From a virus, in UHGV virus genome UHGV-0122704: a stretch of DNA of 43,652 nt; one strand, 5' to 3'. The notes under the pieces were generated by a model, which saw only the letters and a list, made by a program, of their open reading frames with translations, did not search any database and had not been told where the DNA came from. Position 1 is the first letter of the stretch. Each line of letters begins with the position of its first letter. Shown piece by piece: positions 1,663 to 42,382 of the stretch. The position numbers and the translations under genes were made by a program.

Positions 1663-1858
1663 GCTGTAGTGCGTCACGGTGCTATCCCTAGTATGCACTA
1701 GGCTATCCACTGGCTATCCCTAGTGCTTTACATTGTGCCGATTATATGCTACGCTGCGCGCTCCCCACTAGGGCGCACATCCTCACCCAACACTATCCCG
1801 GCGCTATCTCTTTGCTATCCCCTTGCTCTTACTTTCATTCGAAAGCTGTCATGAAATG

Positions 1859-1875
1859 ATGTTACAGGAGTAGGA
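1859..1875 (+). promoter_or_regulatory. Copy A of conserved motif ATGTTACAGGAGTAGGA (17-mer core)
   Basis: Exact 17-mer also present at 22584..22600 and 34492..34508; lies in the non-coding terminal region about 190 bp upstream of HNH gene 2067. Confidence 0.6.
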
Positions 1876-13717: not shown

Positions 13718-13736
13718 TAATGTGATACGAGTAGGA
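13718..13736 (+). promoter_or_regulatory. Degenerate copy D of the conserved 19-bp motif (TAATGTgatacGAGTAGGA)
   Basis: Shares the 5' block TAATGT and 3' block GAGTAGGA at the same spacing as the three exact copies; about 20 nt upstream of HNH gene 13757 in an AT-rich intergenic region that also holds a TTGACT -35-like hexamer (13683..13688). Confidence 0.45.
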
Positions 13737-13756: not shown

Positions 13757-14191
13757 ATGTCGATGTGTATTGACCACGGGTATAACAAATGCCTTAACAA
13801 GAACGGATACCGCCGGGCATGGTATAAGCCGACCAGGCGATTGGAGCTGCTGCATCGGGTGGTGTATGCTGAGCATAACGGGCTGGATATAAGGGCGCTG
13901 GCTGGCCTGTCTGTTAGACATACCTGCGATAACCCCAGGTGCATTAACCCTAAGCACTTAGTATTGGGAACGCATATGGATAATATGCGGGACCGTGCAG
14001 AGCGCGGAAGGAACCCAGATGTGCGTGGGGATAGGAACCCAAAAGCGCAGTTAACTTGGGATGCTGTGCAGGATATCAGGGATAACTATATCCCATACAA
14101 GAAAGGTATGCGGCAACACTTTGCTAATAAGTACGGTGTAGGTGTACATGTAATTAGTGACGTAATAAGTAACAGGAGCTGGAATGCCTAA
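13757..14191 (+). CDS. HNH homing endonuclease (HNH_3-type)
   Basis: LHRVVYAEHNG...HTCDNPRCINPKHLVLGTHMDNMRD; RBS AAGAGGA. Confidence 0.85.
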   Translation: MSMCIDHGYNKCLNKNGYRRAWYKPTRRLELLHRVVYAEHNGLDIRALAGLSVRHTCDNPRCINPKHLVLGTHMDNMRDRAERGRNPDVRGDRNPKAQLTWDAVQDIRDNYIPYKKGMRQHFANKYGVGVHVISDVISNRSWNA

Positions 14192-20106: not shown

Positions 20107-22575
20107 ATGATTAGCGCCCTGAATACGGTTGTAGTACCAGAGGAAGCACTGGTGAAACGCCAGCTGGAGCTTGAAGAGACCTATAAGATTCGCGGAATCG
20201 AGCGGGCACGTAAGCTGATTACGGACGCATTGCAGAACGGTGGGATTATGAACCTGCCGATGACGCAGCGTATGCTCACCTCGGCATATGAGGTGGCCGC
20301 CGCCGCTATCGATGAGATGCGAAATGTAAAAGCCCCGGGCATTGGCGGTAAGTACCGCCGGTTCCTGCGCTTAGTCCCCTTGGATGTCCTGACCACCCTG
20401 AGCCTATGCACAATGTTTGAGGCATTTAGCGTAGCTCCTGGCGAGTCCGCTAGCCGCCGCCAGACTGCACAGGCGGTAATGTCCGCGCTGGGCCGGAACG
20501 TACAATCGGAACTGCTGGCCCTGCAGTTACGCAACGTGGCTCCGGCGTACATGGACCGTGTGTACGAGTACCTTACGGAGCGTAAGACCAAGTCTCCCAC
20601 GCACATCCTGCGTACGCTGCGGGCCAGTGCTGAGAACGTGCACTATGGGCACGAGCCATGGACCAACTCCCAGAATATCTCAGTAGGTCGGCTGCTATGT
20701 GCCGCGGTGTTTGAGACTGGCCTGTTCCAATGGAAGAACTGTAGTGGGAACCTGAGCATGCTCTACCCGGCTGACGATGTTATGGAGGCCTTCCAGAAAC
20801 TGGTAGAGTCCGCTGATACCGTAACCATGAAGCCGCCTATGCTGGTGCCACCGGTACAGCACACCACTATGTGGGATGGCGGGTACCTTACCCCCATCGA
20901 CAATCGCGGGACCTATCACAACTCGCACATCGACCGCGCGCGACTCCGTGAAGTAGCAGAAGCATTCAAGTCCGCGGACGGCATCAAAAAGGCGCTTAAT
21001 AAGGCGCAGGAAACCCCATACCGTATTAATAAGCGCATACTGGAACTGGTGCAAGAAGCACGGGCCCTGGGTATTGGGGTGGGCATGCCCCGCTCAGTAC
21101 CAGAGCCTAAACCGGAGTGGTACTTGGATGGAGTACCAAAAGAGAACTACACCGAAGAAGAACTGGACCGCTTCGGTGAGTGGAAGACGCGCATGTCCCT
21201 ATGGTACAGCGCAGACCGTAAGCGTGTGTCACAACTACGCAGCCTGTTGACCACGCTGGAAATGGCGGAGGAATTCAAAGATGAGAAAGCCCTGTACTTC
21301 CCGACTTGTGTGGACTGGCGCTACCGCCTGTACTTCAAGTCCTCGCTGCATCCCCAAGGTTCTGATTTGCAGAAAGCCCTTCTTGAATTCGGACGTGGCA
21401 AGCCTCTGGGAGAGCGCGGACTTTTCTGGCTTAAAGTGCACGTCGCCACTTGCTTTGGTTATGACAAAACCCTATTCGAAGACCGTGCAGCTTGGGTTGA
21501 TGCGAACTATGCAGAGATTGAGAGGCTCGCGGATTCTCCTCTTGATGCCCCTGCTTTTTCCTCTGCGGATAGCCCCTGGTGCCTGCTGGCCGCCGCTATC
21601 GACTTGGTTAATGCGGTTCGTTCTGGATGCCCAGAAGAGCATATTAGCCGAATCCCAGTTGCTATGGACGCTACAAACTCAGGTGGACAGCATCTCTCAG
21701 CGCTCCTGAGAGACCCTGTGGGCGGACGCTTGACGAACCTGTACTGGGAGGGTAATGATAAGAAAGCGGACCTGTACATGGACGTGAAGCGCCGTACGGA
21801 CGAGAAGGTGATACTGGACCTGGACAAGGAGGATTTCGTTATCCAGAGCACGTACTGGAGAGAGAACGAAATCACCCGCAGCATGACCAAGCGCCCTAGT
21901 ATGACCTACTTCTACAGCGCCACTGTGCGCAGCTGCAGCGACTACATCTTCGAAGGCGCTTGCGCTGAGGGGTACGAGGGTACTGAGACTAACAGTCTGT
22001 GGAACTTGTCATGCTACCTGGCTCCGCGTATGCGCACTGCTATCGAGGAGGCAAACCCAGCCGCAGCCGCAGTTATGGGGTACTTGCAGAACCTCGCTAG
22101 GCGTGTACCGGCAAGCCAGCATCTGCAGTGGTATACGCCGCTGGGTGGGCTCGTAATGAACCGCTACACGCAGCGTGAAGAAGTGCGCGTACGTATTGAC
22201 TGCATGAACCTATCAGCGGTACTGGTACACAACCGGGACTTCAAAACTTGCAACAAGCGCAAGGCAGCCTCCGGGATTGCCCCGAACTTTGTGCATAGCC
22301 TGGACAGTACGCACTTGATGATGGTGCTCTGCGCTGCGGAGGGTCTGGATATTGTGCCTATTCACGACTCGCTGGCTACTCACGCAGCTGACGTTGACGC
22401 TATGCATAGGCACATCCGTGAGCAGTTTGTGCGCCTGTATGAAGAGAATGACCTGCTTGGCGACATTACTCGCGCAGCAGCAGCAGCCGGGGCAGACTTG
22501 ACGGACCTGGACATGCCGGAAGTGGGCACTTTGGACATCCGGCAAGTGCTAGAATCCCCGTTCTTCTTCTGCTAA
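20107..22575 (+). CDS. Single-subunit DNA-dependent RNA polymerase (T7-like)
   Basis: Motif A VAMDATNSGGQHLSALLRD, motif B RSMTKRPSMTYFYSAT and motif C IHDSLATH correspond to the T7 RNAP catalytic motifs; RBS AAGGAGA. Confidence 0.95.
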   Translation: MISALNTVVVPEEALVKRQLELEETYKIRGIERARKLITDALQNGGIMNLPMTQRMLTSAYEVAAAAIDEMRNVKAPGIGGKYRRFLRLVPLDVLTTLSLCTMFEAFSVAPGESASRRQTAQAVMSALGRNVQSELLALQLRNVAPAYMDRVYEYLTERKTKSPTHILRTLRASAENVHYGHEPWTNSQNISVGRLLCAAVFETGLFQWKNCSGNLSMLYPADDVMEAFQKLVESADTVTMKPPMLVPPVQHTTMWDGGYLTPIDNRGTYHNSHIDRARLREVAEAFKSADGIKKALNKAQETPYRINKRILELVQEARALGIGVGMPRSVPEPKPEWYLDGVPKENYTEEELDRFGEWKTRMSLWYSADRKRVSQLRSLLTTLEMAEEFKDEKALYFPTCVDWRYRLYFKSSLHPQGSDLQKALLEFGRGKPLGERGLFWLKVHVATCFGYDKTLFEDRAAWVDANYAEIERLADSPLDAPAFSSADSPWCLLAAAIDLVNAVRSGCPEEHISRIPVAMDATNSGGQHLSALLRDPVGGRLTNLYWEGNDKKADLYMDVKRRTDEKVILDLDKEDFVIQSTYWRENEITRSMTKRPSMTYFYSATVRSCSDYIFEGACAEGYEGTETNSLWNLSCYLAPRMRTAIEEANPAAAAVMGYLQNLARRVPASQHLQWYTPLGGLVMNRYTQREEVRVRIDCMNLSAVLVHNRDFKTCNKRKAASGIAPNFVHSLDSTHLMMVLCAAEGLDIVPIHDSLATHAADVDAMHRHIREQFVRLYEENDLLGDITRAAAAAGADLTDLDMPEVGTLDIRQVLESPFFFC

Positions 22576-22581
22576 AAAATT

Positions 22582-22600
22582 TAATGTTACAGGAGTAGGA
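22582..22600 (+). promoter_or_regulatory. Copy B of conserved 19-bp motif TAATGTTACAGGAGTAGGA, abutting the start codon of gene 22601
   Basis: Exact 19-mer shared with 34490..34508 and 17-mer shared with 1859..1875. Sits between RNAP and the first late gene; its AGGAG doubles as the RBS. Confidence 0.6.
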
Positions 22601-23041
22601 ATGAAGTTAAAACACACTAGTAAAACTTCCGACTACACTCTCAGAGTTCTGTATAAGTCTGACGACATTACGGACGCAGTGAAGCAACTGCATGAACTGG
22701 GCCACGGCATTAGTCGGGGCCTGGCTCCAGAGCAGCACTACTGGAGGGTGCTGGGAAGTATACTGGGTAAACAGTATATACTAGGGGTCTATGACTCCCA
22801 AGGCGACTTAGTCGGTGCTGTCAGCTACTACCCAGAGGCTGTAGAGGACTGTCATTACGTAGAGCCTGTGCTGTATACAGACTTCTTCGTATTGAAACCG
22901 GACAACGGCGCGGCAGTGTCTGTGATTATGCAAGGCCTGCGCGCAATAGCCAAATGCATGCGCGCTGGGCGTATAGCCATTAGCCGGAGTACATCGGATA
23001 ACACGTACAAGACAACTTATCATTTAGTGAGGTCAGAATGA
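22601..23041 (+). CDS. Hypothetical protein (146 aa)
   Basis: First ORF after RNAP, immediately downstream of motif copy B. Confidence 0.6.
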   Translation: MKLKHTSKTSDYTLRVLYKSDDITDAVKQLHELGHGISRGLAPEQHYWRVLGSILGKQYILGVYDSQGDLVGAVSYYPEAVEDCHYVEPVLYTDFFVLKPDNGAAVSVIMQGLRAIAKCMRAGRIAISRSTSDNTYKTTYHLVRSE

Positions 23042-23304
23042 GTGGTGGTAATTTAGGTAAGCTGTTAGGTAAGGCCACGGACATGCTCGGCCTTACTGAC
23101 AACGCAGGATTAGAGGCGCAGCAGCGCTTGGCAGAGCAGCAGGCCAGTGCAGCTAAACAACAGGCTGCCTTAGAGGCTAATAGCGCCGCAGATAACATTG
23201 CTGAGATTGACCCCGCAGGGGCTGCCTCTGAATCTGCAGATGCAATTACGTCTGAGCAGAAGAAACGGCGACAAGCAGGGCAGAGCAATCCTCTGGGCCT
23301 GTAA
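23038..23304 (+). CDS. Hypothetical protein (88 aa), Ala/Gln-rich; possible virion-associated protein
   Basis: ATGA overlap with the upstream gene; lies just before the portal gene. Confidence 0.5.
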   Translation: MSGGNLGKLLGKATDMLGLTDNAGLEAQQRLAEQQASAAKQQAALEANSAADNIAEIDPAGAASESADAITSEQKKRRQAGQSNPLGL

Positions 23305-27392: not shown

Positions 27393-27429
27393 GCCCCTGG
27401 TGCCTTCGGGTGCCAGGGGCTTTTTTTTT
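27393..27429 (+). terminator. Rho-independent terminator (12-bp stem, UUCG tetraloop, T9 tract)
   Basis: GCCCCTGGTGCC-TTCG-GGTGCCAGGGGC followed by TTTTTTTTT; stem includes two G-U wobble pairs. Confidence 0.85.
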
Positions 27430-31011: not shown

Positions 31012-33696
31012 ATGCCTGTGATTCAACCCAATAGACAGGGGCTAAATGTCGGTGGCGTACAATTGCAGGCCAACGATGTTAGCTTGCCGTCAACGGTGAG
31101 TGAGGTATCTGTTGATACCTCCAAAGCAAAACGTCTAGCCGCCCTGTCTGGGTTTGTGCAGGACTTCGGCGTAGGCTTTGACGAGGCAGTAAAAGAGAAC
31201 GCCGCAGCCGCCACAGTGCGCGGCGCGATGGATGCTCAGGGTGCGGTGGACGCGATGGCCTCCAAGGACGAGGCTGTACAGAAGCAGAACATCTTCGTAC
31301 GTGAAGCCTACCAGGATGGCTACGTATCCGCTGCTGCATACGACTCGCTAGCCAAGTGGCGCACAGACAGTATCGCCCGGGCTAAGAAAGCTGCCGAGTC
31401 CGGGTTGACTGACGAGGAGTTCCAGCAGCAGGAGCAAGAGCACGTCCAGTCTATGTCGGACAAGCTCGGTATGTATCTACCGGATATGTCCAAGCAGTCC
31501 GCTACCACCATACTGCAGCAGCTCCGTGCTACCAGCATGGCGAACTATACAGCCTTCCAGAAAGGTCGAGCTGCGTTTGCCCTGGCGCAGGCTGACCGTG
31601 CCCTAGACCGCGGCCTTAGCTCGTCCAGTGATGAGTTCTATCAGCGCCTACAAGCAGGGCAGGGTGCCGCTGCGCAGATGTCTATCAAGACCGGCTTAGA
31701 CAGCATCCTGGCTGCTGAGCACCTGGATAAGAGCAAAAAGCTTGACCGGGCCAAGCAGTATTTGGTCAGCGTAGCGCAGCAGACGCAGGACCCGCTGGTA
31801 ATCAACCAGCTGCAAGAAATGGCCACTAAGGAACTTGGTGTCAACTCCGTAGATGTCAACGCGGCGCTATATCAGGAGTTCAAGCGTGCTGGTGCTCAGA
31901 TTGAGACCCAAGCCCGTTTCGAAATCTCTGATGCAATCCAGTCCCTTGAAGGGCAGACCCCAGAGCAGCAGGAACAGACTATGGCGCATATTCGTAGTCG
32001 TGTCATTGAGCTGTCTGCATCTGATGTGCTCAGCGCTGGCACCAGTATGGAGTTCTGGAACAAGGCCCAGACCATCCGCGAGAAGGCAGCGGACACCCAG
32101 GCATTGCGCACAGCAATCACTGGGAATATGCCAAGCTCTACTTTAGCAGGCATGTTCAAAGGGGACTTAGATAAGGCGCGTACTCAGCTGCTCAAGAGCT
32201 TTCCGGACACCCCGGAAGGGAACCTGCAGTTGCTGGCATACGGGAGCAACAGCAAGGATGCGTGGGCAGTCAACGAGGCGCACAAGCGTATGTCTTCGGA
32301 CATGGCACGTACGCTGACTACGCTGGACCAGCTCGGTGAGGATGGCGAGGTTTCCCGCGAGAACGTCAACAGCATCAACTTGTGGGCACAGGCTTATAGC
32401 ACCAGTACGGACTTAGGTAAGATGGCCCTGCTGTCTGAGGTCCCGTCCGAGTGGCAGGGGGTGGTGCAGAAAGCTATTGCACAAAACCCAAGCAATGCCA
32501 GCAATACTATCTTGGACGACCTGCGCCGCCAGGCGCGTAACAAGGCCAGTGGGCGCTACAGCAATATCCAGAGTAACCCCACGGACAAGATGGTAGACCC
32601 TAGCGGTACCAGCAACTGGTTCAGTTTCTTTGGCGATGCCGACGCTCAGCGCCAGGAAGCGCGCGCTGCTATGGAGGAGGAGTACCGTTATACGTACAGC
32701 CGCAACCCAGAATCTCTGGTGGGTAAAGATGCCGAGGACATCAACACGATGCTAAAGGGTAACATCCAAGCCCGTAAGCTAGAGCTGGAAATTGCCGGTA
32801 CGCCGAGGCACGTGTATCTGCCTGCCGGAACCTCTCTGCAGTCTATCATGGGCGACTACAAGGGCGACCAGGAGCAGTTCAAGGCTACTCTGCAACAGCA
32901 GATTCAAAACCAAGTCCAGGCCATCACCGACCCCAGCAACATGGAACGTGTAGTGGTGCAGGCTGCCACAGCGGGCAACGCGGGTCAGAACATGACCGTA
33001 ACCGTGTTCGACAAGAAGGGCACATTCCAGACTATGTCTGTGAACCTCCGTGACGTTCAGGCTACTGCGCAGGCTGCGTACGATTCGGCACTGGCTGGGG
33101 ATATGAAGATTGGCAGCGAGCAAGTGGGCGTACGTCCTGCCACCTTCTACGACCACGACAATGGGCGCGCTGTCAGCGTACAGGTCAACGGTCGTAACGC
33201 GGTGGGGCTGGAACCATCGCTGTTTAGTGACATCCTCGCCACCACTATGAAGTTCGAAGGGTTCCGAGAAGGCAAGGGCAAGGGTAGCGTAGGCTTCGGT
33301 CTGCACGTTAACTCGGGCATGCCTGTCCCTCAGAAAGTAACCATTGACGACGGTATCAGTATCCTTAAATCCTCTATGGAGAGGCAGTACGTTCCGAACG
33401 TGCAGAAGCAACTCAAGGGGCAGGGTTTGAATGCCTCCGATGAGGCGTTAAAGGTTATGGTGGACCTGAACTATCACGGTGGTAACGGTAGCTCTGGTCC
33501 TGTAGCAGAGGCGATGGCACAGGTACGTAAGGCTGCCAAGTCCCCGGTGGGGGCGTATCAGTATCCTGTATCTGAGGCCCAGGGTAGGGCTTGGCAAGCG
33601 CTGAGGAATACCCCGGCGTACAAGCAGGCCCAACCTGAGCGTAAGAAGTACCTGGAACAAAACCTACGTGATTGGCTCTTTGAGGCAACACACTAA
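31012..33696 (+). CDS. Internal virion protein (gp15-like) with possible C-terminal lysozyme-like domain
   Basis: 894 aa; C-terminal MKFEGFREGKGKGSVGFGLH loosely resembles the E-G...G-x-G-H lysozyme block. Size matches the phiKMV-type internal virion protein with a peptidoglycan hydrolase domain (from memory). Confidence 0.7.
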   Translation: MPVIQPNRQGLNVGGVQLQANDVSLPSTVSEVSVDTSKAKRLAALSGFVQDFGVGFDEAVKENAAAATVRGAMDAQGAVDAMASKDEAVQKQNIFVREAYQDGYVSAAAYDSLAKWRTDSIARAKKAAESGLTDEEFQQQEQEHVQSMSDKLGMYLPDMSKQSATTILQQLRATSMANYTAFQKGRAAFALAQADRALDRGLSSSSDEFYQRLQAGQGAAAQMSIKTGLDSILAAEHLDKSKKLDRAKQYLVSVAQQTQDPLVINQLQEMATKELGVNSVDVNAALYQEFKRAGAQIETQARFEISDAIQSLEGQTPEQQEQTMAHIRSRVIELSASDVLSAGTSMEFWNKAQTIREKAADTQALRTAITGNMPSSTLAGMFKGDLDKARTQLLKSFPDTPEGNLQLLAYGSNSKDAWAVNEAHKRMSSDMARTLTTLDQLGEDGEVSRENVNSINLWAQAYSTSTDLGKMALLSEVPSEWQGVVQKAIAQNPSNASNTILDDLRRQARNKASGRYSNIQSNPTDKMVDPSGTSNWFSFFGDADAQRQEARAAMEEEYRYTYSRNPESLVGKDAEDINTMLKGNIQARKLELEIAGTPRHVYLPAGTSLQSIMGDYKGDQEQFKATLQQQIQNQVQAITDPSNMERVVVQAATAGNAGQNMTVTVFDKKGTFQTMSVNLRDVQATAQAAYDSALAGDMKIGSEQVGVRPATFYDHDNGRAVSVQVNGRNAVGLEPSLFSDILATTMKFEGFREGKGKGSVGFGLHVNSGMPVPQKVTIDDGISILKSSMERQYVPNVQKQLKGQGLNASDEALKVMVDLNYHGGNGSSGPVAEAMAQVRKAAKSPVGAYQYPVSEAQGRAWQALRNTPAYKQAQPERKKYLEQNLRDWLFEATH

Positions 33697-33746
33697 CTAG
33701 AGGCCCTCCGGGGCCTCCCCTTATCAAAATTCTTTTAGGAGATATT

Positions 33747-36700
33747 ATGGCTCAGTTTCTGAACCAAGAACCGAATCCACAGGAAAAGGATTCTGCTAAG
33801 GGCGCAACACTTAAACCTGCGCCTGAGCGCGTAGATTGGAACGATGCCGGAGACAACGGCTTAAACGCACTGGAGCGTGCCTCCTTACTGGCGCAGGCCA
33901 AGACCCCAGCTACTACAGCCGGGGAGAGCTTTGCGTCTGGTATGGGTAACAGCATCATCGCCGCAGCTATCCGTAAGGCCTCTGCCCCGGCATTTGACCG
34001 GGACCAGAACTTTAACGCCAAGCAGACTCTGAGCAGCGATACCAGGGCTAAGCTGTATGCTCCGAATCAGGAAGAGATTGAGTACCTGCACGACTCTGTA
34101 TCGGTCGAGGATTACAACTACCGCATGCAGCAGATGCTTGAGCAACGCAACCGTGACCGCTTAATGGCTGACAACACGGTAGCCGGGTTCGCGGGTATGT
34201 TGGTGGGTGATTCTCCGTTCATCCTGGCCCCGATGTCTGCCGCTGGTATTGCTGGCCGCGCAGGCTTAGCTGCACGGACTGCTATCCGCGCTGCTGACGT
34301 AGGCTCCGCATTCTATGCGCAGGACCAACTGGGCCAGTCTGCTGCGGTAACTGCACTGGTAGCGGGCGTAGCTGGGTTGGACCAGCTCTGGGATATGTCT
34401 AGGGCTGCTAAAGCTGCTGCTAAGGCTCGTACTGGGCGTGAGCCTATGTTCGACCCAGAAGCGCCTACAACTCGTACAGCGAGGGACGCTAATGTTACAG
34501 GAGTAGGAGAGGGAGAGGAAATCCTTACTAAGACACTGGATGAAAGCATCCAAGTATCTAGAAACAATACCGCCTCCGTGAACATGAAAGCACAGCACGT
34601 AGTTCAGTTCTTGAAGAAGTCCGAACACTTAACAGCAGGCCAGAAGGCTATTCTGGACACGCTGGGCGATGCTGTAAATGACATTGATTTTAAACTGGTA
34701 GCAGGCTCCGCAAACCGCAGCCGCTACACTTACGCACAGCAAGATTTAGCTAAGCGTGGAGAGGTGTCTCTACGCGCACCTAAGCGAGCTAATGGCAGCA
34801 CATGGACTACAGCAGGGGACGCACTGCGTGCTATGGATGCAGACACAAGCAGGGTAGCCGTGCACGAACTGATTCATGCCGCCACTGCGCGCGCCGTTGA
34901 CAGTAACCCAGAGATTGCTAAGCGCCTGGATGAAGTGCGCGCTGTTATTGCAGCGGACTCCACCTTGACGCCGCGTATGCGGTATTACGCTAGTAATGTG
35001 CACGAGATGCTGGCAGGCTTAGGTGACAGCCCTGAGTGGGTTGAGCATCTGGCGCGGACGAAATCCCCAACCGGTAAGAGCATGCTCCGCCAACTGGGCG
35101 AGTACATCATGAATGCCCTGGGCATCAAGGCCAAAGGTTCTGCCTTGGAAGATGTCTTGGATGCGTACGAGGACGCCGTTAAGTGGACAGCTAAGGATTA
35201 TGCAGACCAAGCCCAGGGCTTCCGTAGTGAAGCCTTCCAGGACCTGGCGGGCAGCACTACCCTAAACGAGGCTAAGGGTGCCCAAGCTATGCTGGATGGC
35301 GCTAAGAAGAAGCTCTCTACTATGTTTGCCCTGTACGATAACATCGCTCAAGGCAATGAAGACTTGGCTAAACTGCTAGTGTCGGATGCGTCCGCAGTAG
35401 GCGGCCGTCGCCCGTCTGTAGTGGACTTCAAGCGCAACCTCACTTTGGAGATGGACGCCAGCGCTAGCGTAGTGGAAGACGCTATCCTGGGCGCGTTGAA
35501 GGATAAGGGTGTAGGTTTCTCTGAGCGCTTCTTCCATCGGAGCAAGTTCCGCGCTGAGCGGGCTGCACTGGAAGACCGCCTGAGCAAGTACCTGGATGCT
35601 GCCTACAGTGCTGATGTAAACGGCCGAGCTGTTCCCGTACCGGATGCAGAGATTGCCCCACTGGTTGACGCCTATCGCCGCTCTGGCTGGGCAGGCAAGT
35701 GGCACGAGCATATGCTCAATGCTGGTCTAGTGGATGATGGTGCGTTGGTTAAATCCGATTACTACTTCCCGCGTCAGTACAGCTACGACAAGATGCGCCA
35801 AGGTATTGCGCAGGGTAACACTCTGGACGACTACCGCGCCCTGTTCAGGTCCGCCCTGCGGGACGTGTACCCGAGCATGGAGTCAGAGGTAGTGCAGCGT
35901 GTTGCAAAGGAGATGGTTGACGGTATCTACAACGGCCGTGCAGGGCAGTCCGGCCCGATGTGGAAGCAGCTGATTAACGGCATGGGTAACGACGAGGTCG
36001 TTATGGCTATGCGTAGCGCTGGTGTAGATGAATCTGCAATCCAGAGTTTCCTGGCTGGTAACGTACGCGAATCCGGTAGCACATCCCCTGCGCGGAACCT
36101 GCGTCAGCGTACTCGGTTCAACATGGACAAAGAGTATCTGGTGAACGGTAAGAGCATGCGCATGCAGGACCTGATGGATACTGATGTAGCCAAGGTTATG
36201 CACGGGTACACTAACCGTATGTCTGGGCGTGTAGGCATGGCCTATGCAGGCGTACAGGACCTGGGCCAGCTAGCTAAGATGATTGATGAGTCTAAGCACG
36301 CACTGGCGGATTCCGCTAAGTGGGAGAAGACAGTCAATGACACCATCGACTTTATCCTGGGTGGGGCGCCTGCTGACGCCGGACAGCTTCCGGATTTGCT
36401 GCGTGCAGCCGGGAACATGGCTAACGCCACCATGCTTAAGAACTCCGGCCTGTATCAGCTGACTGACACTGCCCTGGCTATGAAGGAGTTCGGTATGGCT
36501 AGAGTGCTGCGTAGTATGCGTGACCAGCCTTGGTTCAAGGAAGGTGCCGTAGCTATCAAGACTCCGGATATGGCTACCCGTCTAGACACTGTACTGCGAG
36601 GTAATATCCAGAAGGAGATGCGCTTCCGCTGGTTGAATACGTACGCCGACGATAACCTGGACCTGACCCGTCAGGCCTCTTGGTTCAATGTAACCCAGAA

Positions 36701-37445
36701 CGTTGGGCAGGCTGCGCGTCACGTCAACGGTATGAGCATGGTGCACCGGCTGCAGGTTAACCTGAACTCCGGCATTGTGGCGGATGAGCTTACCCAGATG
36801 TTCAAGGGTGATGCTGCGGCGTTTAAGCGTCTGGAGCGTTTCGGGCTTACCCGCGACGTTGCTGACCGTGCCATCGCTGCCAACAAAGCCAACCCGGGCG
36901 CCATGTTCCAGCCGGACCTGCAAATGCAAGTTGAGGTTGTAGGGACGCGTATGATGGACTACCTGGTACAGCAGGTTCGTACTGGAGAGACCTCACACTT
37001 TGCACAGTTCAACCCTATCGGCAAAGTCATTGTAGGGTACCAGAGCTTCGCACTGGCCGCCACTAACAAGATTCTGCGTAGGGAGCTGAGCGACGCTGGG
37101 TGGATTGGCGTAGCCCATATTATGGCGTATCAATTCCCGCTGATGCTACTGGCTACTATGGCTAAGCACGGTATGGATGGGAAGGACGTAGACACCCAGA
37201 AACTCATCGGTGAGTCCGTGATGGGTATGAGTGCCATTGGCGGTGTATCCTTACTACAGGATATCTTCCTGGGGGATTCTCCCCGTCACTCATTGGCATC
37301 TATGGGTTACGTCACAGGACTACTTGGGGCTGTGCAGGACCTGGCTACCGGTAATATGGATATCAAGACCTTCACTAAGCAGGTGCCGTTAATCCAGGAA
37401 TTCGCACCTACGCGAGCTATCATCAATAACTTCGGAGACGATTAA
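33747..37445 (+). CDS. Internal virion (core / ejectosome) protein, gp16-like
   Basis: 1232 aa, the largest ORF, at the position of T7 gp16; RBS AGGAG. Confidence 0.75.
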   Translation: MAQFLNQEPNPQEKDSAKGATLKPAPERVDWNDAGDNGLNALERASLLAQAKTPATTAGESFASGMGNSIIAAAIRKASAPAFDRDQNFNAKQTLSSDTRAKLYAPNQEEIEYLHDSVSVEDYNYRMQQMLEQRNRDRLMADNTVAGFAGMLVGDSPFILAPMSAAGIAGRAGLAARTAIRAADVGSAFYAQDQLGQSAAVTALVAGVAGLDQLWDMSRAAKAAAKARTGREPMFDPEAPTTRTARDANVTGVGEGEEILTKTLDESIQVSRNNTASVNMKAQHVVQFLKKSEHLTAGQKAILDTLGDAVNDIDFKLVAGSANRSRYTYAQQDLAKRGEVSLRAPKRANGSTWTTAGDALRAMDADTSRVAVHELIHAATARAVDSNPEIAKRLDEVRAVIAADSTLTPRMRYYASNVHEMLAGLGDSPEWVEHLARTKSPTGKSMLRQLGEYIMNALGIKAKGSALEDVLDAYEDAVKWTAKDYADQAQGFRSEAFQDLAGSTTLNEAKGAQAMLDGAKKKLSTMFALYDNIAQGNEDLAKLLVSDASAVGGRRPSVVDFKRNLTLEMDASASVVEDAILGALKDKGVGFSERFFHRSKFRAERAALEDRLSKYLDAAYSADVNGRAVPVPDAEIAPLVDAYRRSGWAGKWHEHMLNAGLVDDGALVKSDYYFPRQYSYDKMRQGIAQGNTLDDYRALFRSALRDVYPSMESEVVQRVAKEMVDGIYNGRAGQSGPMWKQLINGMGNDEVVMAMRSAGVDESAIQSFLAGNVRESGSTSPARNLRQRTRFNMDKEYLVNGKSMRMQDLMDTDVAKVMHGYTNRMSGRVGMAYAGVQDLGQLAKMIDESKHALADSAKWEKTVNDTIDFILGGAPADAGQLPDLLRAAGNMANATMLKNSGLYQLTDTALAMKEFGMARVLRSMRDQPWFKEGAVAIKTPDMATRLDTVLRGNIQKEMRFRWLNTYADDNLDLTRQASWFNVTQNVGQAARHVNGMSMVHRLQVNLNSGIVADELTQMFKGDAAAFKRLERFGLTRDVADRAIAANKANPGAMFQPDLQMQVEVVGTRMMDYLVQQVRTGETSHFAQFNPIGKVIVGYQSFALAATNKILRRELSDAGWIGVAHIMAYQFPLMLLATMAKHGMDGKDVDTQKLIGESVMGMSAIGGVSLLQDIFLGDSPRHSLASMGYVTGLLGAVQDLATGNMDIKTFTKQVPLIQEFAPTRAIINNFGDD
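34490..34508 (+). promoter_or_regulatory. Copy C of conserved 19-bp motif TAATGTTACAGGAGTAGGA, inside the gp16-like gene
   Basis: Exact 19-mer identical to 22582..22600; lies in-frame within the coding sequence (encodes ...ANVTGVGEGEE...). Confidence 0.6.
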
Positions 37446-37446
37446 T

Positions 37447-38403
37447 ATGGCATACAGCTGGCAAGAACAAATCAAGCCAGCTGGTACCCAGGATATCCAG
37501 TGCGATATTGAATATTTGGACAAGTCCTATATTCATGTATACCTAGACGGTGTGGAAACCACTGGGTACACCTGGACCAGCTCTACTAATATCAGGCTTA
37601 ATTCGGCCTTAGCGGCAAGCACTACTGTGCTACTAATCCGTAAGACAGAGCGAGAGTATCTGTACATTGAGTTCGCCAGTGGTTCTCCGTTCATTGAGGT
37701 AAACGTAGACTCCCAAAACACGCAGTTCCTGCACCTTGCGCAGGAACTAGTGGAGGGCCGGGCTATACCCGGATTCTATGGCGCTATCAGCATGAACGGG
37801 TACCGGATAACCAACTTAGCCAACCCAATCAGTGCCCAAGATGCCGCCACTAAGGCTTATGTAGATGCCGCCGATGCCTTACTAGGACAGCGCATTGACG
37901 CAGAGCATTCGGGGTGGGTATCCGCTGTACAGGCCGAAGCCGTTACACGGAAGGCAGCAGATGACGCGCTGAGTGCCCGTACCTCCGCCTTGGAGAACAC
38001 CTTTATAAGCGGTGTAGAGACGGTAAGCTACCCGTGGAGCACGGTCCTGGCCACTGATACGGACGAAGTAACTCCAGGCTTAGCCTTCACTAAGGCTGTA
38101 GTAGAGGTTAACGGGGTTGGGCAGATTCGTGGCTACAGTTTCGATATTGTAGATAATACCATACTGTTTGCAGAGACCTTACCTGCAGGCACTATTGTAG
38201 CCGCTCGGCTGGGGGTTGATGTAACTGCGGGGGACGGTTTTGCTACGCAAGCATCCCTAGATTACTTAGCCGACTCTTTGGGAGATTTGGCGTATCTGGA
38301 CAAGGCTGCAGCTGTATCCAACGCAACCGGCACCGGGGATGTAGTGGCTAAATTTAACGCACTGCTGGCAGCGCTACGCACCAGTGGGGTGCTGTCTACA
38401 TGA
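37447..38403 (+). CDS. Tail fibre / adaptor protein with T7 gp17-like N-terminal domain
   Basis: MNGYRITNLANPISAQDAATKAYVD parallels T7 gp17 GRRIVNLANAVDDRDAVPFGQL. At 318 aa it is short, consistent with an anchor for a second receptor-binding protein. Confidence 0.8.
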   Translation: MAYSWQEQIKPAGTQDIQCDIEYLDKSYIHVYLDGVETTGYTWTSSTNIRLNSALAASTTVLLIRKTEREYLYIEFASGSPFIEVNVDSQNTQFLHLAQELVEGRAIPGFYGAISMNGYRITNLANPISAQDAATKAYVDAADALLGQRIDAEHSGWVSAVQAEAVTRKAADDALSARTSALENTFISGVETVSYPWSTVLATDTDEVTPGLAFTKAVVEVNGVGQIRGYSFDIVDNTILFAETLPAGTIVAARLGVDVTAGDGFATQASLDYLADSLGDLAYLDKAAAVSNATGTGDVVAKFNALLAALRTSGVLST

Positions 38404-38415
38404 TAGGAGAAGAGC

Positions 38416-38718
38416 ATGGCAGGGGCAGCTAAACGCAGTCGCCTCTCGGAGCTGCACCGTATGTTCACCGAGGCCTTGATTGAAGAAATCAAGCAGTCTA
38501 AGGAAGATGAGGTGCCGCTCCCCGCAGCAGATAAATCGGTCATTGCTAAGTTCTTGAAGGATAACGACATCACCGCGGACGCAGATTCCGAGGAGATGCA
38601 GGACCTTCGTGACGAATTCGATGACGAGCTAGCGGCGCGCAGAGAGGCGCGTAAGCAAGAGATTCTAAATAAAGTTGGTGGTTCAGACTCTGAGGACTTA
38701 CTAGAAGGAATTGTCTAA
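38416..38718 (+). CDS. Terminase small subunit (T7 gp18-like)
   Basis: 100-aa acidic protein directly upstream of the large terminase; RBS AGGAGAAG. Confidence 0.7.
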   Translation: MAGAAKRSRLSELHRMFTEALIEEIKQSKEDEVPLPAADKSVIAKFLKDNDITADADSEEMQDLRDEFDDELAARREARKQEILNKVGGSDSEDLLEGIV

Positions 38719-40574
38719 TGGTATCGGTGAAGACTGCGCGAAGACTGCGCATGCTCAACCAGAAACTTACTGGTTATAGTGCGAATCCGCGCAGTATTCC
38801 CAAAGAGGAGCGCGAGGATATCGCGATGATGATGGCCGCGGCGCTAAGCGACTTCCGGGAATTCGCGTACATCGGTATGCGGTTCCTGGGCTTTACGCTC
38901 ACGGACATGCAGGCCGACATTGCAGAGTACATGCAGAAGGGCCCCCGGAAGCGCATGGTGGCCGCGCAGCGTGGTGAGGCTAAGTCTACACTAGCTGCAC
39001 TGTACGCCGTCTGGAGGCTCATCCAGGACCAATCCTGCCGTATCCTGATTGTGTCCGGTGCAGAGAAGCAGGCGTCCGACGTAGCGAACTTAATCATTCG
39101 TATGATTGAGACATGGCCGCTGCTGTGCTATTTGAAGGCTGATCCTACTCGTGGGGACCGTACTTCATTCGAAGGTTATGACGTACACTGTGACCTCAAG
39201 CCGCTGGAGAAATCCGCCAGCGTAGCCTGTGTAGGTATCACTGCATCCCTGCAGGGTAAGCGCGCGGACCTGCTGATTCCGGATGATATCGAGACCACCA
39301 AGAATGGTTTAACGCAAACCCAGCGTGAGCAGCTGCTGATGATTTCTAAAGACTTCGCGGCTATCTGTACGCACGGGGATACGCTGTACCTGGGTACACC
39401 ACAGACCAAGGACAGTATCTATAAAACCCTGCCGGGACGTGGCTTCGAGGTCCGCGTGTGGCCCGGGCGCATTCCGTCTGTTGAAATGGAAGAGCGATAT
39501 GGAAGTACACTTGCTCCTTATATCCTGGAGCTTATTGAGCGCGGCTATAAACGCACCGGCTTCGGAGTCGACGGAACGCTAGGCGAGAGCACGGACACCG
39601 GGCGCTATGACGAGGATGCGCTGATTGAGAAGGAGCTGGACTTTGGTCCGGAAGGCTTCCAGCTGCAGTACATGCTCGACACCACCCTGTCCGACCAAAT
39701 GCGTACGCGCATCAAGCTATCGGATATGCTGGTTTACTCTGGCAGCCAGGATTCCTCCCCGGAGACGTTCTCCTACATTGCGGACCGCAGGTACCTGTAC
39801 CAGCACGAGCATGAGGGGATTATGGGTCAGCAGATGTACTTCCCGGCATTCTACGGGGACATGCACCTGCCGTACCAGCATAAGGTACTGGTGGTGGACC
39901 CGGCTGGTTGTGGTGGGGACGAAGTGTCCTACGCTGCTGGAGGTGCTGCGAACTCGTACATTCACCTATTCTCCGTAGGCGGATTCCAAGGAGGTATCAG
40001 CGAAGAGAACATTGATAAACTGATTGACCTGTGTGTAGAGTTGGACATCCCGGATATGGTGGTGGAGAGCAATATGGGGCACGGTACCGTGTCTATGCTT
40101 ATCCTGAACCGATTACGTGAGCGGCGTCTCGCCGGTATCGGTGTAAGGGACCTGAATAACTCCACGCAGAAAGAGCGTCGTATCATCGACACAATCAGCC
40201 CAGTTACTCGTCGCCATCGCCTGATAGTGCATGAGCGTGCTATTCACGACGATATCAGTACCTGTATGGCATATTCCCGCGATAGGCGTTGGCTGTACTC
40301 TGCGTTCGCGCAGTTGTCCGGTATCACGTACGACCGCGGTAGCCTTGCGAAGGATGACCGGGCAGACGCAATCGCCATGATGGTGGCTACGCTGAATGGG
40401 CATCTGGTGGAAGATGAGAAAGTGGTGGCTGAGCGTGAGTCTGAGAAGATGGCTCGGGCCTTCATTGAGAACCCACTGGATTGGGCACAGAGCAAAGTGT
40501 CTAAGGGCCTTCGTGGTGTAGCTGCTCGGCTACATAACCGGGGCAGAGGTAAACAACATAGAGGAAGAAGATAA
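38718..40574 (+). CDS. Terminase large subunit (T7 gp19-like)
   Basis: 618 aa at the gp19 position; call is by synteny and size. Confidence 0.8.
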   Translation: MVSVKTARRLRMLNQKLTGYSANPRSIPKEEREDIAMMMAAALSDFREFAYIGMRFLGFTLTDMQADIAEYMQKGPRKRMVAAQRGEAKSTLAALYAVWRLIQDQSCRILIVSGAEKQASDVANLIIRMIETWPLLCYLKADPTRGDRTSFEGYDVHCDLKPLEKSASVACVGITASLQGKRADLLIPDDIETTKNGLTQTQREQLLMISKDFAAICTHGDTLYLGTPQTKDSIYKTLPGRGFEVRVWPGRIPSVEMEERYGSTLAPYILELIERGYKRTGFGVDGTLGESTDTGRYDEDALIEKELDFGPEGFQLQYMLDTTLSDQMRTRIKLSDMLVYSGSQDSSPETFSYIADRRYLYQHEHEGIMGQQMYFPAFYGDMHLPYQHKVLVVDPAGCGGDEVSYAAGGAANSYIHLFSVGGFQGGISEENIDKLIDLCVELDIPDMVVESNMGHGTVSMLILNRLRERRLAGIGVRDLNNSTQKERRIIDTISPVTRRHRLIVHERAIHDDISTCMAYSRDRRWLYSAFAQLSGITYDRGSLAKDDRADAIAMMVATLNGHLVEDEKVVAERESEKMARAFIENPLDWAQSKVSKGLRGVAARLHNRGRGKQHRGRR

Positions 40575-40948
40575 TGGCATCAATCATCGCAGCTAAAACT
40601 GCGGACGTCCAGTACGCCATTGTAGGCACGTGCCAGAACCTGGAGAAGCAGGTGCAGCCGGACTACAACGTAGGCTTCGTAGGTACGACTGCCCTGACTA
40701 AGCTGAACGCGTTCTTCACGTACATGCAGTCCCAGGGCTATACGGCTACCCGTGCCGGTACAGCCTTTAAGGATGACGGTACGCTGCAGGCGCGCCTGTT
40801 CAGCATGCTGTCACAGCTCTCTAAGACCGGCTACGTTGCCCTTACAGGTACAGGTATGCCGCTCGGTGAGGGCTCCGGTACAGCGTTTGATGATTCGTTC
40901 ACTGCACTGCAGAGTGCATTCGTAGCCGCCACTGATGCGGCAGAATAA
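40574..40948 (+). CDS. Hypothetical protein (124 aa)
   Basis: Start overlaps the terminase stop; soluble Thr/Ala/Gly-rich protein. Confidence 0.55.
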   Translation: MASIIAAKTADVQYAIVGTCQNLEKQVQPDYNVGFVGTTALTKLNAFFTYMQSQGYTATRAGTAFKDDGTLQARLFSMLSQLSKTGYVALTGTGMPLGEGSGTAFDDSFTALQSAFVAATDAAE

Positions 40949-40959
40949 GGAGAGTACAC

Positions 40960-41142
40960 ATGGCAATTGCAAAAGCAACCTCAGCGCAACAGCAGGAGCT
41001 GTTGCGTCAGCTGAACATTCTCGGTAAGGACCTGTATGCTATCCTTACGCAGCCGCAGAACGTGGCCCAGACTGGTGCTGCCTTCGATACCAAGATTGCT
41101 GCGCTTGAAGCCGCGGTGGCCGCAGTGGAGGCTGCTAGCTAA
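40960..41142 (+). CDS. Hypothetical protein (60 aa)
   Basis: RBS AAGGAGAG; Ala/Gln-rich, helical. Confidence 0.5.
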   Translation: MAIAKATSAQQQELLRQLNILGKDLYAILTQPQNVAQTGAAFDTKIAALEAAVAAVEAAS

Positions 41143-41546
41143 TGCGTAAACTGGTCGCTGGGTTGCTGCTCGCGGTTACTCTGACTGGTTGCTCGGCGAC
41201 CTCTGCACTCACCGGCTTAGTTGGTTCTAAGCCGGATGTATCTGCTCAGGTTGGTGCCGAGAACACCAAACAAACCGTTGGCTTGAATAACAAGGTGGAC
41301 TCCAGCACCACCAACAAAACTGATGTACAGGATTCTAACGTAGGCACTTTGGACACGTCCAGTAAGAAGCAGGTGCAAACTATTAGCACCGGGACAATCC
41401 AGGCAGAACGCCTGCAGGTGGTTAACAATGATAGTTACAGTCTTATCCTCGCCGGATTAGCTGGGGCCAGTATTCCTCTGGTCTTCCTAGTGGTCATTCT
41501 GGTGATTCGTAAGCTGTTCAGGAAGAAGGGGCAGCAGGATGATTAA
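41142..41546 (+). CDS. Putative unimolecular spanin (N-terminal lipoprotein signal + C-terminal TMD)
   Basis: N-terminus MRKLVAGLLLAVTLTGCS has a signal peptide with lipobox LTGC; C-terminus LILAGLAGASIPLVFLVVILVIRKLFRKK is a TM helix with a basic tail. Sits in the lysis cassette. Confidence 0.7.
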   Translation: MRKLVAGLLLAVTLTGCSATSALTGLVGSKPDVSAQVGAENTKQTVGLNNKVDSSTTNKTDVQDSNVGTLDTSSKKQVQTISTGTIQAERLQVVNNDSYSLILAGLAGASIPLVFLVVILVIRKLFRKKGQQDD

Positions 41547-41790
41547 GGTGGGAGACATGGTTGGAGCAGACATCGCTACCCGGGCAGGTGCAGCAGTTAC
41601 CGGCGCTACGGTATCAGGAGGTTGGTTGGCAGAGTTAATGAGCTGGAACTGGAGCACTATCAGCTTCATCACTGCGACGGTGTGCGCAGTGTTAACCCTG
41701 GCGTGGAATGCGTATTACAAGCGACGTACATTCAAGCTCCTAGAGGAGCAGGCACGTAAGGGGACTATTAAATATGAGTTTAAGGACTAA
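41539..41790 (+). CDS. Holin (two predicted TMDs; pinholin-like)
   Basis: 83 aa with two hydrophobic segments (AAVTGATVSGGWLAELM and STISFITATVCAVLTLAWNAYY) and a charged C-terminus; immediately upstream of the endolysin. Alternative start ATG 41557. Confidence 0.7.
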   Translation: MIKVGDMVGADIATRAGAAVTGATVSGGWLAELMSWNWSTISFITATVCAVLTLAWNAYYKRRTFKLLEEQARKGTIKYEFKD

Positions 41791-42382
41791 GGTTGTGGCG
41801 GCCCTTACGGGGGCCACCATGCTCGGCGGCGCTATCACTGGAGTGATTAAGCATAACGAAGGTCTAAGCCTCCCCGCCTATAGGGACAGTGCCGGTGTCC
41901 CTACCATCTGCTATGGCGAGACAAAGGGCGTCAAGATGGGCCAGAGAGCCACGCTGAGCGATTGTCAGAAGCAACTGATACAATCAGCAGGGGAACACGC
42001 AAAAGCCCTTGACGGGCTTCCTATGCAGCTCTCTGATGTAGCTCTGGTTGGGTCTATAGACTTTATTTATAACGTAGGAGTAGCTGGCTTCAACGGCAGC
42101 TCCGTGAAGCGGCATCTCAAGAACCTGGATTACGCAGCAGCTGGAAAGGCCGTACTGGACTGGCGCTATATTAGCAAGTACCAGCAGAAATCCCCGGGCA
42201 TCGGTTGGGTGTACAAGGGTAGCAACCGCTGGACCTTCGACTGTTCTCAGTATATTAACGGGCAGCGCAATAAAGTGTGCTGGGGCCTATGGGGGCGCAG
42301 ACAGTGGCAGAGCAAGGCCATTGGGAATCAGTATAAGAATGTAAATGCTGCGGTGGCAGCTCTTACTAAGACCGGAGGATAA
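41774..42382 (+). CDS. Endolysin, GH24 (T4-lysozyme-like) muramidase with N-terminal SAR domain
   Basis: Gly/Ala-rich weakly hydrophobic N-terminus VVAALTGATMLGGAITGVI followed by catalytic E-x8-D-x5-T (NEGLSLPAYRDSAGVPTICYGET). Confidence 0.85.
   Translation: MSLRTKVVAALTGATMLGGAITGVIKHNEGLSLPAYRDSAGVPTICYGETKGVKMGQRATLSDCQKQLIQSAGEHAKALDGLPMQLSDVALVGSIDFIYNVGVAGFNGSSVKRHLKNLDYAAAGKAVLDWRYISKYQQKSPGIGWVYKGSNRWTFDCSQYINGQRNKVCWGLWGRRQWQSKAIGNQYKNVNAAVAALTKTGG

What the first reader, a model, noticed from the sequence alone, without database searches (positions are those of the whole stretch)
34490..34508. Motif copy lies inside the gp16-like internal virion protein gene
A regulatory or nick motif embedded in-frame in a 1232-aa structural gene is constrained at both DNA and protein level (it encodes ...ANVTGVGEGEE...). 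As a promoter it would drive tail fibre, terminase, lysis and tailspike genes from inside an upstream gene; as a nick site it would mark a fixed break in the packaged genome.
Basis: seen in the sequence. Interest (0 to 1): 0.6.

Follow-up and report, generated by a model that had tools for sequence, protein, structure and literature searches.

The report
Phage RNA polymerase promoter inside gene
The 19-base motif is a copy of the already characterised promoter for this Klebsiella phage's own RNA polymerase, placed inside a large structural gene where it most likely restarts late transcription; it looks functional, but the same site has already been published for the close relative KP34.

Summary
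TAATGTTACAGGAGTAGGA lies at 34490-34508, in frame (…ANVTGVGEGEE…) in the 1232-aa internal virion protein gene. It is identical to the copy just after the RNA polymerase (RNAP) gene (22582) and differs by one base from an early copy (1857); 0.01 matches are expected by chance.

The window is a KP34-like Klebsiella Drulisvirus. Its first 16 bases are the KP34 RNAP "strong promoter" T(A/G)ATGTTACAGGAGTA, shown by in vitro transcription and 5'-RACE (Lu et al. 2019). That paper lists a copy at KP34 nt 33721-33736, the same offset (743 nt) in the orthologous gene.

New here: in about 55 relatives the 19-mer is essentially invariant at this position. The exception is promoter base -7 (34499, a synonymous ACA/ACC change). 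That base matches a four-residue block of the RNAP specificity loop (SAVL with A, TIMR with C) in 48 of 48 genomes. It is the only one of 749 common polymorphisms in the region to do so.

The nick-site reading is not supported. The phiKMV nick consensus is absent, and the only nick signal reported in a Drulisvirus maps elsewhere.

Verdict: a real, almost certainly functional intragenic late promoter that is already known. No in vivo start site has been mapped for this copy.

The parts
34490..34505 (+). Intragenic copy of the phage RNAP strong promoter (positions -16 to -1), TAATGTTACAGGAGTA
   Evidence: Exact match to KP34 promoter S1. Same offset (743 nt into the gene) as KP34 33721-33736 in gene 48.
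34506..34508 (+). Predicted initiation site: +1 G at 34506, initial transcribed GGA
   Evidence: Inferred from KP34 5'-RACE, where the start is the nucleotide after the 16-mer. GGA follows all three copies in the window.
34499..34499 (+). Promoter position -7 (A here), third base of Thr codon ACA, the specificity-linked base
   Evidence: A in 24 genomes with RNAP loop SAVL and C in 24 genomes with loop TIMR. It is the only one of 749 common polymorphisms perfectly associated with RNAP type.
33747..37445 (+). Host gene: gp16-like internal virion protein with endolysin domain (1232 aa)
22582..22600 (+). Identical promoter copy 7 nt after the RNAP stop codon; the ATG of the next ORF is at 22601
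   Evidence: It is the orthologue of KP34 22197-22212, where the transcription start was mapped.
1857..1875 (+). Left-end promoter copy of the S2 type, TGATGTTACAGGAGTAGGA
   Evidence: S2 was shown to be as active as S1 in vitro.
20107..22575 (+). Single-subunit RNA polymerase gene (822 aa). Residues 703-706 (SAVL; nt 22213-22224, converted from the residue numbers) lie in the segment that aligns with the T7 specificity loop.
   Evidence: Matches T7 RNAP at E = 2e-68. Residues 703-706 align with T7 Q758-I761. Loop types are given.
27393..27429 (+). Strong intrinsic terminator (12-bp stem followed by T9) between the capsid and tail genes, upstream of the intragenic promoter
   Evidence: The sequence is identical to the KP34 terminator listed by Eriksson et al. 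2015.
37447..42382 (+). Downstream genes the promoter would serve: tail fibre, small and large terminase subunits, spanin and endolysin (the tailspike lies beyond). The tail fibre gene has its own GGAG Shine-Dalgarno sequence.
13718..13736 (+). Related but divergent motif TAATGTGATACGAGTAGGA (3 mismatches); status uncertain
   Evidence: Identical in 7 relatives whatever their RNAP type, so it does not co-vary with the RNAP.

Best explanation
The motif is a working late promoter for the phage's own T7-like single-subunit RNA polymerase, embedded in the coding sequence of the gp16-like internal virion protein gene. The polymerase binds positions -16 to -1 (34490-34505) and starts RNA at G34506. 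It then transcribes rightwards through the rest of the gene into the tail fibre, terminase, lysis and tailspike genes. Because a strong hairpin terminator (27393-27429) lies between the main post-RNAP promoter (22582) and these distal genes, the intragenic promoter most likely restores or boosts their transcription. This is the same logic as T7 promoters phi13 and phi17 downstream of terminator T-phi. Shown: sequence identity to a biochemically validated promoter, orthology of the site, and co-variation with the polymerase. Inferred: that this copy fires in vivo, the exact start site, and the boost-after-terminator role.
For: (1) The 16-mer is exactly KP34 strong promoter S1. It is active in vitro with purified KP34 RNAP, and 5'-RACE placed the start at the next base. 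The authors list the orthologous copy at KP34 33721-33736, which lies at the same 743-nt offset in gene 48.
(2) The window encodes the cognate 822-aa RNAP.
(3) The 19-mer sits at the same codon offset in all 51 IMG/VR relatives. It is also kept in F19, RCIP0072 and P252, whose gene is only 69% identical to the window's (F19) and is diverged immediately downstream. Six of seven synonymous third positions are invariant or nearly so.
(4) The only common variant, -7 A/C, always equals the -7 base of the same genome's other promoter copies; no mixed genome was seen. It also matches RNAP loop residues 703-706, SAVL versus TIMR, in 48 of 48 genomes. It is the only one of 749 common polymorphisms in the 2.4-kb region with perfect association; the next best reaches 81%.
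(5) This association holds even though the base needs 8-10 changes on the local gene tree, and regions differing by only 0.34% carry different bases.
(6) Residues 703-706 align to T7 Q758-I761 in the specificity loop.
(7) In LUZ19, of another subfamily, the motif copy I identify as structural-region promoter P009 lies inside the orthologous gene gp37; its four phage-specific promoters come from transcription start sites found by ONT-cappable-seq.
(8) A terminator lies upstream of the site, and the downstream tail fibre gene has its own ribosome-binding site.
Against: No transcript 5' end has been mapped at this copy in any Drulisvirus; I found none in the searchable literature. The in vitro tests used synthetic 16-nt promoters, not this genomic context. 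Synonymous conservation of the 7 codons falls only in the 4th-6th percentile of the gene, and the sequence just upstream is also conserved for protein reasons. ZX11 (-6 G to A) and one IMG/VR contig (-13 T to C) carry mutated copies, so a perfect copy may not be essential. A transcript starting here carries about 2.9 kb of untranslatable gp16 sequence before the first complete gene.
Confidence: 0.88

Rival explanations
1. The motif marks a site-specific single-strand nick in packaged DNA, as in phiKMV-like Pseudomonas phages.
For: The reverse complement contains CCTACTCC, the core of the phiKMV nick consensus CGACNNNNNCCTACTCCGG. Nicks do occur in this phage group, and a nick signal was reported in the Drulisvirus fHe-Kpn01.
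Against: Only 8 of the 14 specified consensus bases match, on the opposite strand. CGAC is missing and the core is followed by TG, not GG. Three copies of the 8-mer against 1.6 expected is not significant. In LUZ19 the nick-consensus sites (3130, 6753, 14413, 24765, all intergenic) are distinct from the true promoters (21115, 21312, 35590, -751). fHe-Kpn01 has all three motif copies (483, 22074, 33614), yet its only PhageTerm and S1-nuclease signal is at 7873 in unrelated sequence. A nick site would not be expected to co-vary with the RNAP specificity loop.
Confidence: 0.03
2. The intragenic copy is a non-functional look-alike, conserved only because the protein needs ANVTGVG or because it is inherited by linkage.
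For: The sequence just upstream is conserved at protein level (FDPEAPTTRTARD). Synonymous conservation is only moderately extreme. Two relatives carry mutated copies.
Against: The peptide is not conserved in the Koutsourovirus or Vibrio VP93 homologues, yet all fourfold-degenerate third positions except -7 are fixed across about 55 genomes. The -7 base tracks an RNAP segment encoded 12 kb away, perfectly and uniquely among 749 sites, on mixed local haplotypes. Linkage cannot explain this.
Confidence: 0.05
3. The site is bound by the phage RNAP, but its main role is not expression of downstream genes. It might instead act as a transcription-primed secondary replication origin or aid concatemer processing, as described for some T7 promoters (from my own knowledge of T7 biology). 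This is not exclusive with the best explanation.
For: The co-variation shows RNAP recognition, not what the transcript is used for. The transcript has a 2.9-kb leader before the first complete gene.
Against: No replication or packaging data exist. The terminator-then-promoter layout, with late genes that have their own ribosome-binding sites, fits gene expression. LUZ19 has an equivalent structural-region promoter, reported among its TSS-defined phage promoters.
Confidence: 0.08

Closest known systems
KP34 RNAP strong promoter S1, copy at KP34 nt 33721-33736 (Lu et al. 2019, Front Microbiol 10:2487, PMC6834552)
   Same: Identical 16-nt sequence. Same gene (internal virion protein with endolysin domain), same 743-nt offset and same orientation. 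Same three-copy layout: left end, after the RNAP gene, and inside this gene.
   Different: It is a different phage isolate; the gene is about 93-95% identical to its closest database relatives. The published work validated the sequence in vitro and mapped a start only at the post-RNAP copy; it did not examine the intragenic copy in its own context.
LUZ19 / Phikmvvirus phage-specific promoter P009 (Putzeys et al. 2024, microLife 5:uqae002, PMC10914365)
   Same: A single-subunit RNAP promoter in the structural region, which by my motif search lies inside the orthologous gene (gp37). The motifs are related and equally spaced (ATGT-yACA-N4-N2-GG). There are few promoters per genome. Its four phage-specific promoters come from TSSs found by ONT-cappable-seq.
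   Different: The consensus differs (GgtTATGTCACacACAnnGG). The position within the gene differs (3387 of 4014 nt, against 743 of 3699). LUZ19 also has an antisense copy. I inferred that P009 is the copy at nt 35590 from a motif search, because the paper's tables were not available.
T7 class III promoters phi13 and phi17 downstream of terminator T-phi, and T7 promoters that lie within coding sequence (Dunn and Studier 1983; cited from my own knowledge)
   Same: The logic is the same: a phage RNAP promoter re-initiates late transcription after a partially efficient hairpin terminator, and promoters are tolerated inside coding sequence.
   Different: The promoter sequence is different, and T7 has 17 or more promoters against 3-4 here. 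The RNAP gene sits mid-genome in phiKMV- and KP34-like phages.
phiKMV-type localized nick consensus 5'-CGACNNNNNCCTACTCCGG-3' (Kulakov et al. 2009, as quoted in bioRxiv 10.1101/619015)
   Same: It shares the 8-mer CCTACTCC, here on the reverse complement.
   Different: The rest of the consensus is absent and the match is on the opposite strand. The site here is intragenic, while the consensus sites in LUZ19 are intergenic. No nick evidence exists at this motif in a Drulisvirus.

Membership tests
KP34-type single-subunit RNAP strong promoter | 16-nt sequence T(A/G)ATGTTACAGGAGTA | tested here: met
   Exact match at 34490-34505; the definition comes.
KP34-type single-subunit RNAP strong promoter | Initiating purine directly after the 16-mer (G at +1) | tested here: met
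   GGA at 34506-34508, as in the other two copies. Actual initiation was not measured.
KP34-type single-subunit RNAP strong promoter | Cognate RNAP encoded in the same genome | tested here: met
   An 822-aa RNAP is encoded at 20107-22575. Its specificity-loop segment is identical to that of A-type relatives, including the KP34 contig.
KP34-type single-subunit RNAP strong promoter | Oriented with the genes it would transcribe | tested here: met
   The motif and all large ORFs are on the + strand.
KP34-type single-subunit RNAP strong promoter | Sequence tracks the polymerase's specificity determinants across relatives | tested here: met
   The -7 base matches RNAP loop SAVL/TIMR in 48 of 48 genomes, uniquely among 749 sites.
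KP34-type single-subunit RNAP strong promoter | Transcription initiation demonstrated at this copy | not testable with these tools
   This needs 5'-RACE or cappable-seq, or run-off transcription on the native fragment. No such data were found.
phiKMV-type localized single-strand nick site | Consensus CGACNNNNNCCTACTCCGG | tested here: not met
   Only CCTACTCC is present, on the - strand, followed by TG and without CGAC. LUZ19 shows four full matches elsewhere in its genome.
phiKMV-type localized single-strand nick site | Physical strand interruption in virion DNA at the site | not testable with these tools
   Indirect evidence only: fHe-Kpn01 carries the motif three times, but its one reported nick signal is at nt 7873.
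T7-group (Teseptimavirus) promoter | 23-bp consensus TAATACGACTCACTATAGGGAGA | tested here: not met
   It shares only the 5' TAAT and the TA/GG junction at the start site. This is a different specificity class (one search compares the promoters).

The most novel reading that the evidence does not exclude
Drulisviruses fall into two RNAP/promoter specificity classes: RNAP loop 703-706 SAVL with A at -7, and TIMR with C at -7. Every promoter copy, including this intragenic one, has been re-matched to the resident polymerase many times on otherwise mosaic genomes. If the two pairs are truly orthogonal, the switch could act as a compatibility barrier between co-infecting relatives, since a recombinant with mismatched promoters would lose late expression. 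It would also give a natural orthogonal RNAP-promoter pair differing by four residues and one base. Eriksson et al. 2015 noted the two loop types, but I found no report linking them to the -7 base.
Probability: 0.45. Interest if true: 0.45.

Novelty: already known. Interest (0 to 1): 0.2.

Why it matters
For annotation, it fixes one of only three strong phage-polymerase promoters in this genome. It also explains how the distal late genes (tail fibre, terminase, lysis, tailspike) can be transcribed beyond the capsid terminator. For phage engineering, synonymous recoding or truncation of the gp16-like gene around codons 248-254 would destroy a promoter. Swapping RNAP modules between A-type and C-type Drulisviruses may need matching changes at all promoter copies. 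The biology itself is not new: the sequence and this location were published for KP34 in 2019, and an equivalent intragenic promoter has TSS support in LUZ19.

Tried and rejected
1. Nick-site reading. I searched for the phiKMV consensus (only the 8-mer core is present, at chance frequency), compared nick-consensus and promoter positions in LUZ19, and checked the fHe-Kpn01 nick position. Rejected.
2. In vivo start-site data for Drulisvirus. Three literature searches found none. The supplementary tables of Putzeys 2024 are not held, so P009 = LUZ19 nt 35590 is my inference from a motif search.
3. Host sigma-70 promoter at the site. There is no + strand hit at 34490, and the hits in the region are at chance level (14 found against 11.4 expected).
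4. Internal translation start that would give a truncated gp16 from the new transcript. The first in-frame ATG is at 34584, a GTG precedes it two codons earlier, and no Shine-Dalgarno sequence is present. Not supported.
5. Structured 5' leader RNA. The fold of +1 to +120 has z = -0.95. Nothing notable.
6. Equivalent intragenic promoters in more distant genera (Koutsourovirus EhYP, Vibrio VP93). No repeated promoter-like motif could be identified by fuzzy search or k-mer census. Inconclusive.
7. Synonymous-site conservation alone. It is only moderately extreme (rank 26-33 of about 590 windows), so it was not used as the main argument.
8. The eight IMG/VR contigs whose C-type 16-mer flank matches that of L088 (cgggtaggcatt... 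/ ...tgatgttacc...). In L088 the match is intergenic, in a different element, with no Rfam hit. I treated it as a family-amplified chance match. Contigs in the other unclassified flank groups were not examined.

Full report
**Observation.** Window 34490-34508 reads TAATGTTACAGGAGTAGGA. It lies inside the + strand ORF 33747-37445 (1232 aa). This ORF matches phrog_342, 'internal virion protein with endolysin domain', at E = 6e-242. The same 19-mer occurs exactly at 22582-22600, with one mismatch at 1857-1875 and with three mismatches at 13718-13736, all on the + strand. That is 4 matches where 0.01 are expected by chance. A k-mer census found no other extended repeat occurring three times in the window.

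**What the window is.** The gene is 90-95% identical to those of about 150 Klebsiella phages of the genus Drulisvirus (KP34-like, Autographiviridae, Slopekvirinae). The window carries the usual mid-genome single-subunit RNA polymerase gene (20107-22575, 822 aa), which matches T7 RNAP at E = 2e-68.

**What the motif is.**
- Lu et al. 2019 (PMC6834552) purified KP34 RNAP and showed by in vitro transcription and 5'-RACE that its 'strong promoter' is 5'-T(A/G)ATGTTACAGGAGTA-3'.
- Initiation is at the next nucleotide.
- They list three genomic copies: 475-490 (TGATG…), 22197-22212 (just after the RNAP gene) and 33721-33736.
- KP34 gene 48 spans 32978-36676, so the third copy lies 743 nt into the gene. 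That is the same offset as in the window (34490 minus 33747).

The finding is therefore the orthologue of a published promoter copy. By analogy, the promoter is 34490-34505 and +1 is G34506. All three copies in the window are followed by GGA.

**Conservation across relatives.**
- In 51 IMG/VR relatives of the gene the 19-mer sits at the same codon position. Twenty-five carry the window's form, 25 carry TAATGTTACCGGAGTAGGA and one carries TAACGTT….
- Six of the seven third-codon positions under the motif are invariant or nearly so.
- Mean synonymous diversity is 0.079 against a gene mean of 0.285 (rank 33 of 594 windows). With the most variable codon dropped it is 0.007 against 0.242 (rank 26 of 585). 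On its own this is only moderately extreme.
- F19, RCIP0072 and P252 keep the exact 19-mer, although the window's gene is only 69% identical to F19's and is strongly diverged immediately downstream.
- ZX11 has a private G-to-A change at -6.
- The encoded peptide is not conserved in the Koutsourovirus (DTVYARTAAS) or Vibrio VP93 (VVKVPRTGKG) homologues. The motif sits at the start of a variable linker after the conserved FDPDAPT segment. The constraint is therefore mainly on the DNA.

**Co-variation with the polymerase (the strongest evidence).**
- The one common variant is promoter position -7 (window 34499, ACA/ACC, both Thr).
- Within every genome where two or more copies were recovered, the intragenic, post-RNAP and early copies carry the same -7 base. 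No mixed genome was seen.
- The -7 base of the intragenic copy matches a four-residue block of the RNAP. Residues 703-706 are SAVL with A and TIMR with C. This held in 47 of 47 IMG/VR genomes and in the GenBank genomes checked.
- I tested 749 common polymorphic sites across the 2.4-kb gene region in 48 genomes. Position 34499 is the only one perfectly associated with RNAP type (48 of 48). The next best, 12 nt away, reaches 81%.
- The association is not a clade effect. On a tree of the local region the base needs 8-10 changes (random expectation 17), and two regions differing by 0.34% carry different bases, each matching its own polymerase.
- Residues 703-706 align with T7 RNAP Q758-I761, inside the specificity loop that reads positions -7 to -11 in T7 (alignment; the role of the T7 loop is from my own knowledge).
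- Eriksson et al. 2015 had noted two specificity-loop subgroups, KP34 and K2044 versus SU503, SU552A and F19. This agrees with the A and C classes found here.

I conclude that the intragenic copy is read by the phage RNAP in vivo.

**Likely role.** A strong hairpin terminator followed by T9 lies at 27393-27429, after the capsid gene. Its sequence is identical to the KP34 terminator listed by Eriksson et al.. Lu et al. observed that KP34 RNAP terminates at a T7-type hairpin terminator. The intragenic promoter is the only strong promoter downstream of this terminator. Beyond it lie the tail fibre, small and large terminase, spanin and endolysin genes, and the tail fibre gene has its own GGAG ribosome-binding site. 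The most economical model is that the promoter re-initiates late transcription for the distal genes, as phi13 and phi17 do after T-phi in T7 (my own knowledge). This step is inferred, not shown.

**A parallel in another subfamily.** ONT-cappable-seq in LUZ19 found four phage-specific promoters, one of them 'in the structural region, in agreement with KP34'. My motif search places that copy at LUZ19 nt 35590, inside gp37, the orthologous internal virion protein gene. It lies at a different relative position in the gene.

**Nick hypothesis.**
- The phiKMV nick consensus is CGACNNNNNCCTACTCCGG. The window has only the 8-mer CCTACTCC, on the minus strand within the three promoter copies. CGAC is absent and TG follows instead of GG. 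Three hits against 1.6 expected is not significant.
- In LUZ19 the four consensus sites (3130, 6753, 14413, 24765) are intergenic and distinct from the RNAP promoters.
- The Drulisvirus fHe-Kpn01 carries the motif at 483, 22074 and 33614. Its only PhageTerm and S1-nuclease signal is at nt 7873, in unrelated sequence.

The nick reading is not supported, although no direct nick mapping exists for this phage.

**Limits.** No transcript 5' end has been mapped at this copy in any Drulisvirus that I could find. The in vitro work used synthetic promoters. Two relatives carry a mutated copy, so a perfect copy may not be essential.

**Verdict.** This is a real feature and almost certainly a functional intragenic promoter for the phage RNAP. 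Its sequence and its position are already in the literature. The added value here is comparative evidence that this particular copy is under polymerase-specific selection, together with a clear A/SAVL versus C/TIMR specificity split.

Noticed in passing
window 22582-22603: In the post-RNAP promoter copy, +1 (G22598) lies only 3 nt before the ATG of the next ORF (22601), so its transcript would be nearly leaderless. For read-through transcripts, the AGGAG inside the promoter sits at Shine-Dalgarno distance from that ATG. The same arrangement is seen in KP-Rio, fHe-Kpn01, F19 and ZX11.
   Followed up: partly
window 13718-13736: TAATGTGATACGAGTAGGA (3 mismatches to the promoter) lies about 20 nt upstream of an ORF start; in this window that ORF is an HNH endonuclease gene (13757-14191). 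It is identical in KP-Rio, fHe-Kpn01, ZX11, F19, RCIP0072 and P252 whatever their RNAP type, so it does not co-vary at -7. It could be a weak or differently regulated promoter or another binding site.
   Followed up: partly
window 8704-8728 and 23223-23247: A repeat of about 20 nt, CTGCAyCTGCAGATGCAATT, occurs in two unrelated genes and is conserved in KP-Rio, fHe-Kpn01, ZX11 and F19. The first copy corresponds to the place (fHe-Kpn01 nt 7873, …ctctgc|acctgcagatgcaattt…) where the only nick signal in a Drulisvirus was reported. If these phages have a nick motif, this is a better candidate than the promoter.
   Followed up: partly
L313 21593-22069; L314 22083-22559; L316 21591-21929: Several of the C-type (TIMR) genomes examined (fHe-Kpn01, ZX11, F19, RCIP0072) have an extra gene, an HNH endonuclease in fHe-Kpn01 and ZX11, inserted between the RNAP stop codon and the post-RNAP promoter. 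The A-type genomes whose post-RNAP copy was recovered, including the window, have that promoter within 200 nt of the RNAP stop. The RNAP difference is a block of four consecutive codons about 350 nt upstream of that insertion point. This raises the possibility of homing-endonuclease-driven co-conversion of the loop.
   Followed up: no
window 3286 and 4002: Two copies begin with AGCCTATAGC, the start of the ~32-nt motif AGCCTATAGCGTCCTACGGGGCGCTATGTGAA. Eriksson et al. 2015 proposed that motif as a phage promoter or nick site, and Lu et al. 2019 found it inactive with KP34 RNAP in vitro. Its function remains unexplained.
   Followed up: no
L058, L088 and about 30 other IMG/VR loci (e.g. L088 2671-2689): The C-type 16-mer ATGTTACCGGAGTAGG (usually with TA or TG in front and A after it, giving the 19-mer) also occurs once each in about 30 IMG/VR contigs, mostly 43-50 kb with some shorter fragments, that are not Drulisvirus. 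Their flanks fall into several groups. In the one locus examined (L088) it is intergenic, upstream of a small hydrophobic ORF, with no Rfam hit. It is probably a family-amplified chance match.
   Followed up: partly
L315 (LUZ19) 3130, 6753, 14413, 24765: The GenBank record of LUZ19 still annotates the four nick-consensus sites as 'phage-specific promoter sequence'. The promoters later found by ONT-cappable-seq are a different motif at different positions. At least one later paper (PMC11475235) lists the nick consensus as the phiKMV promoter.
   Followed up: yes
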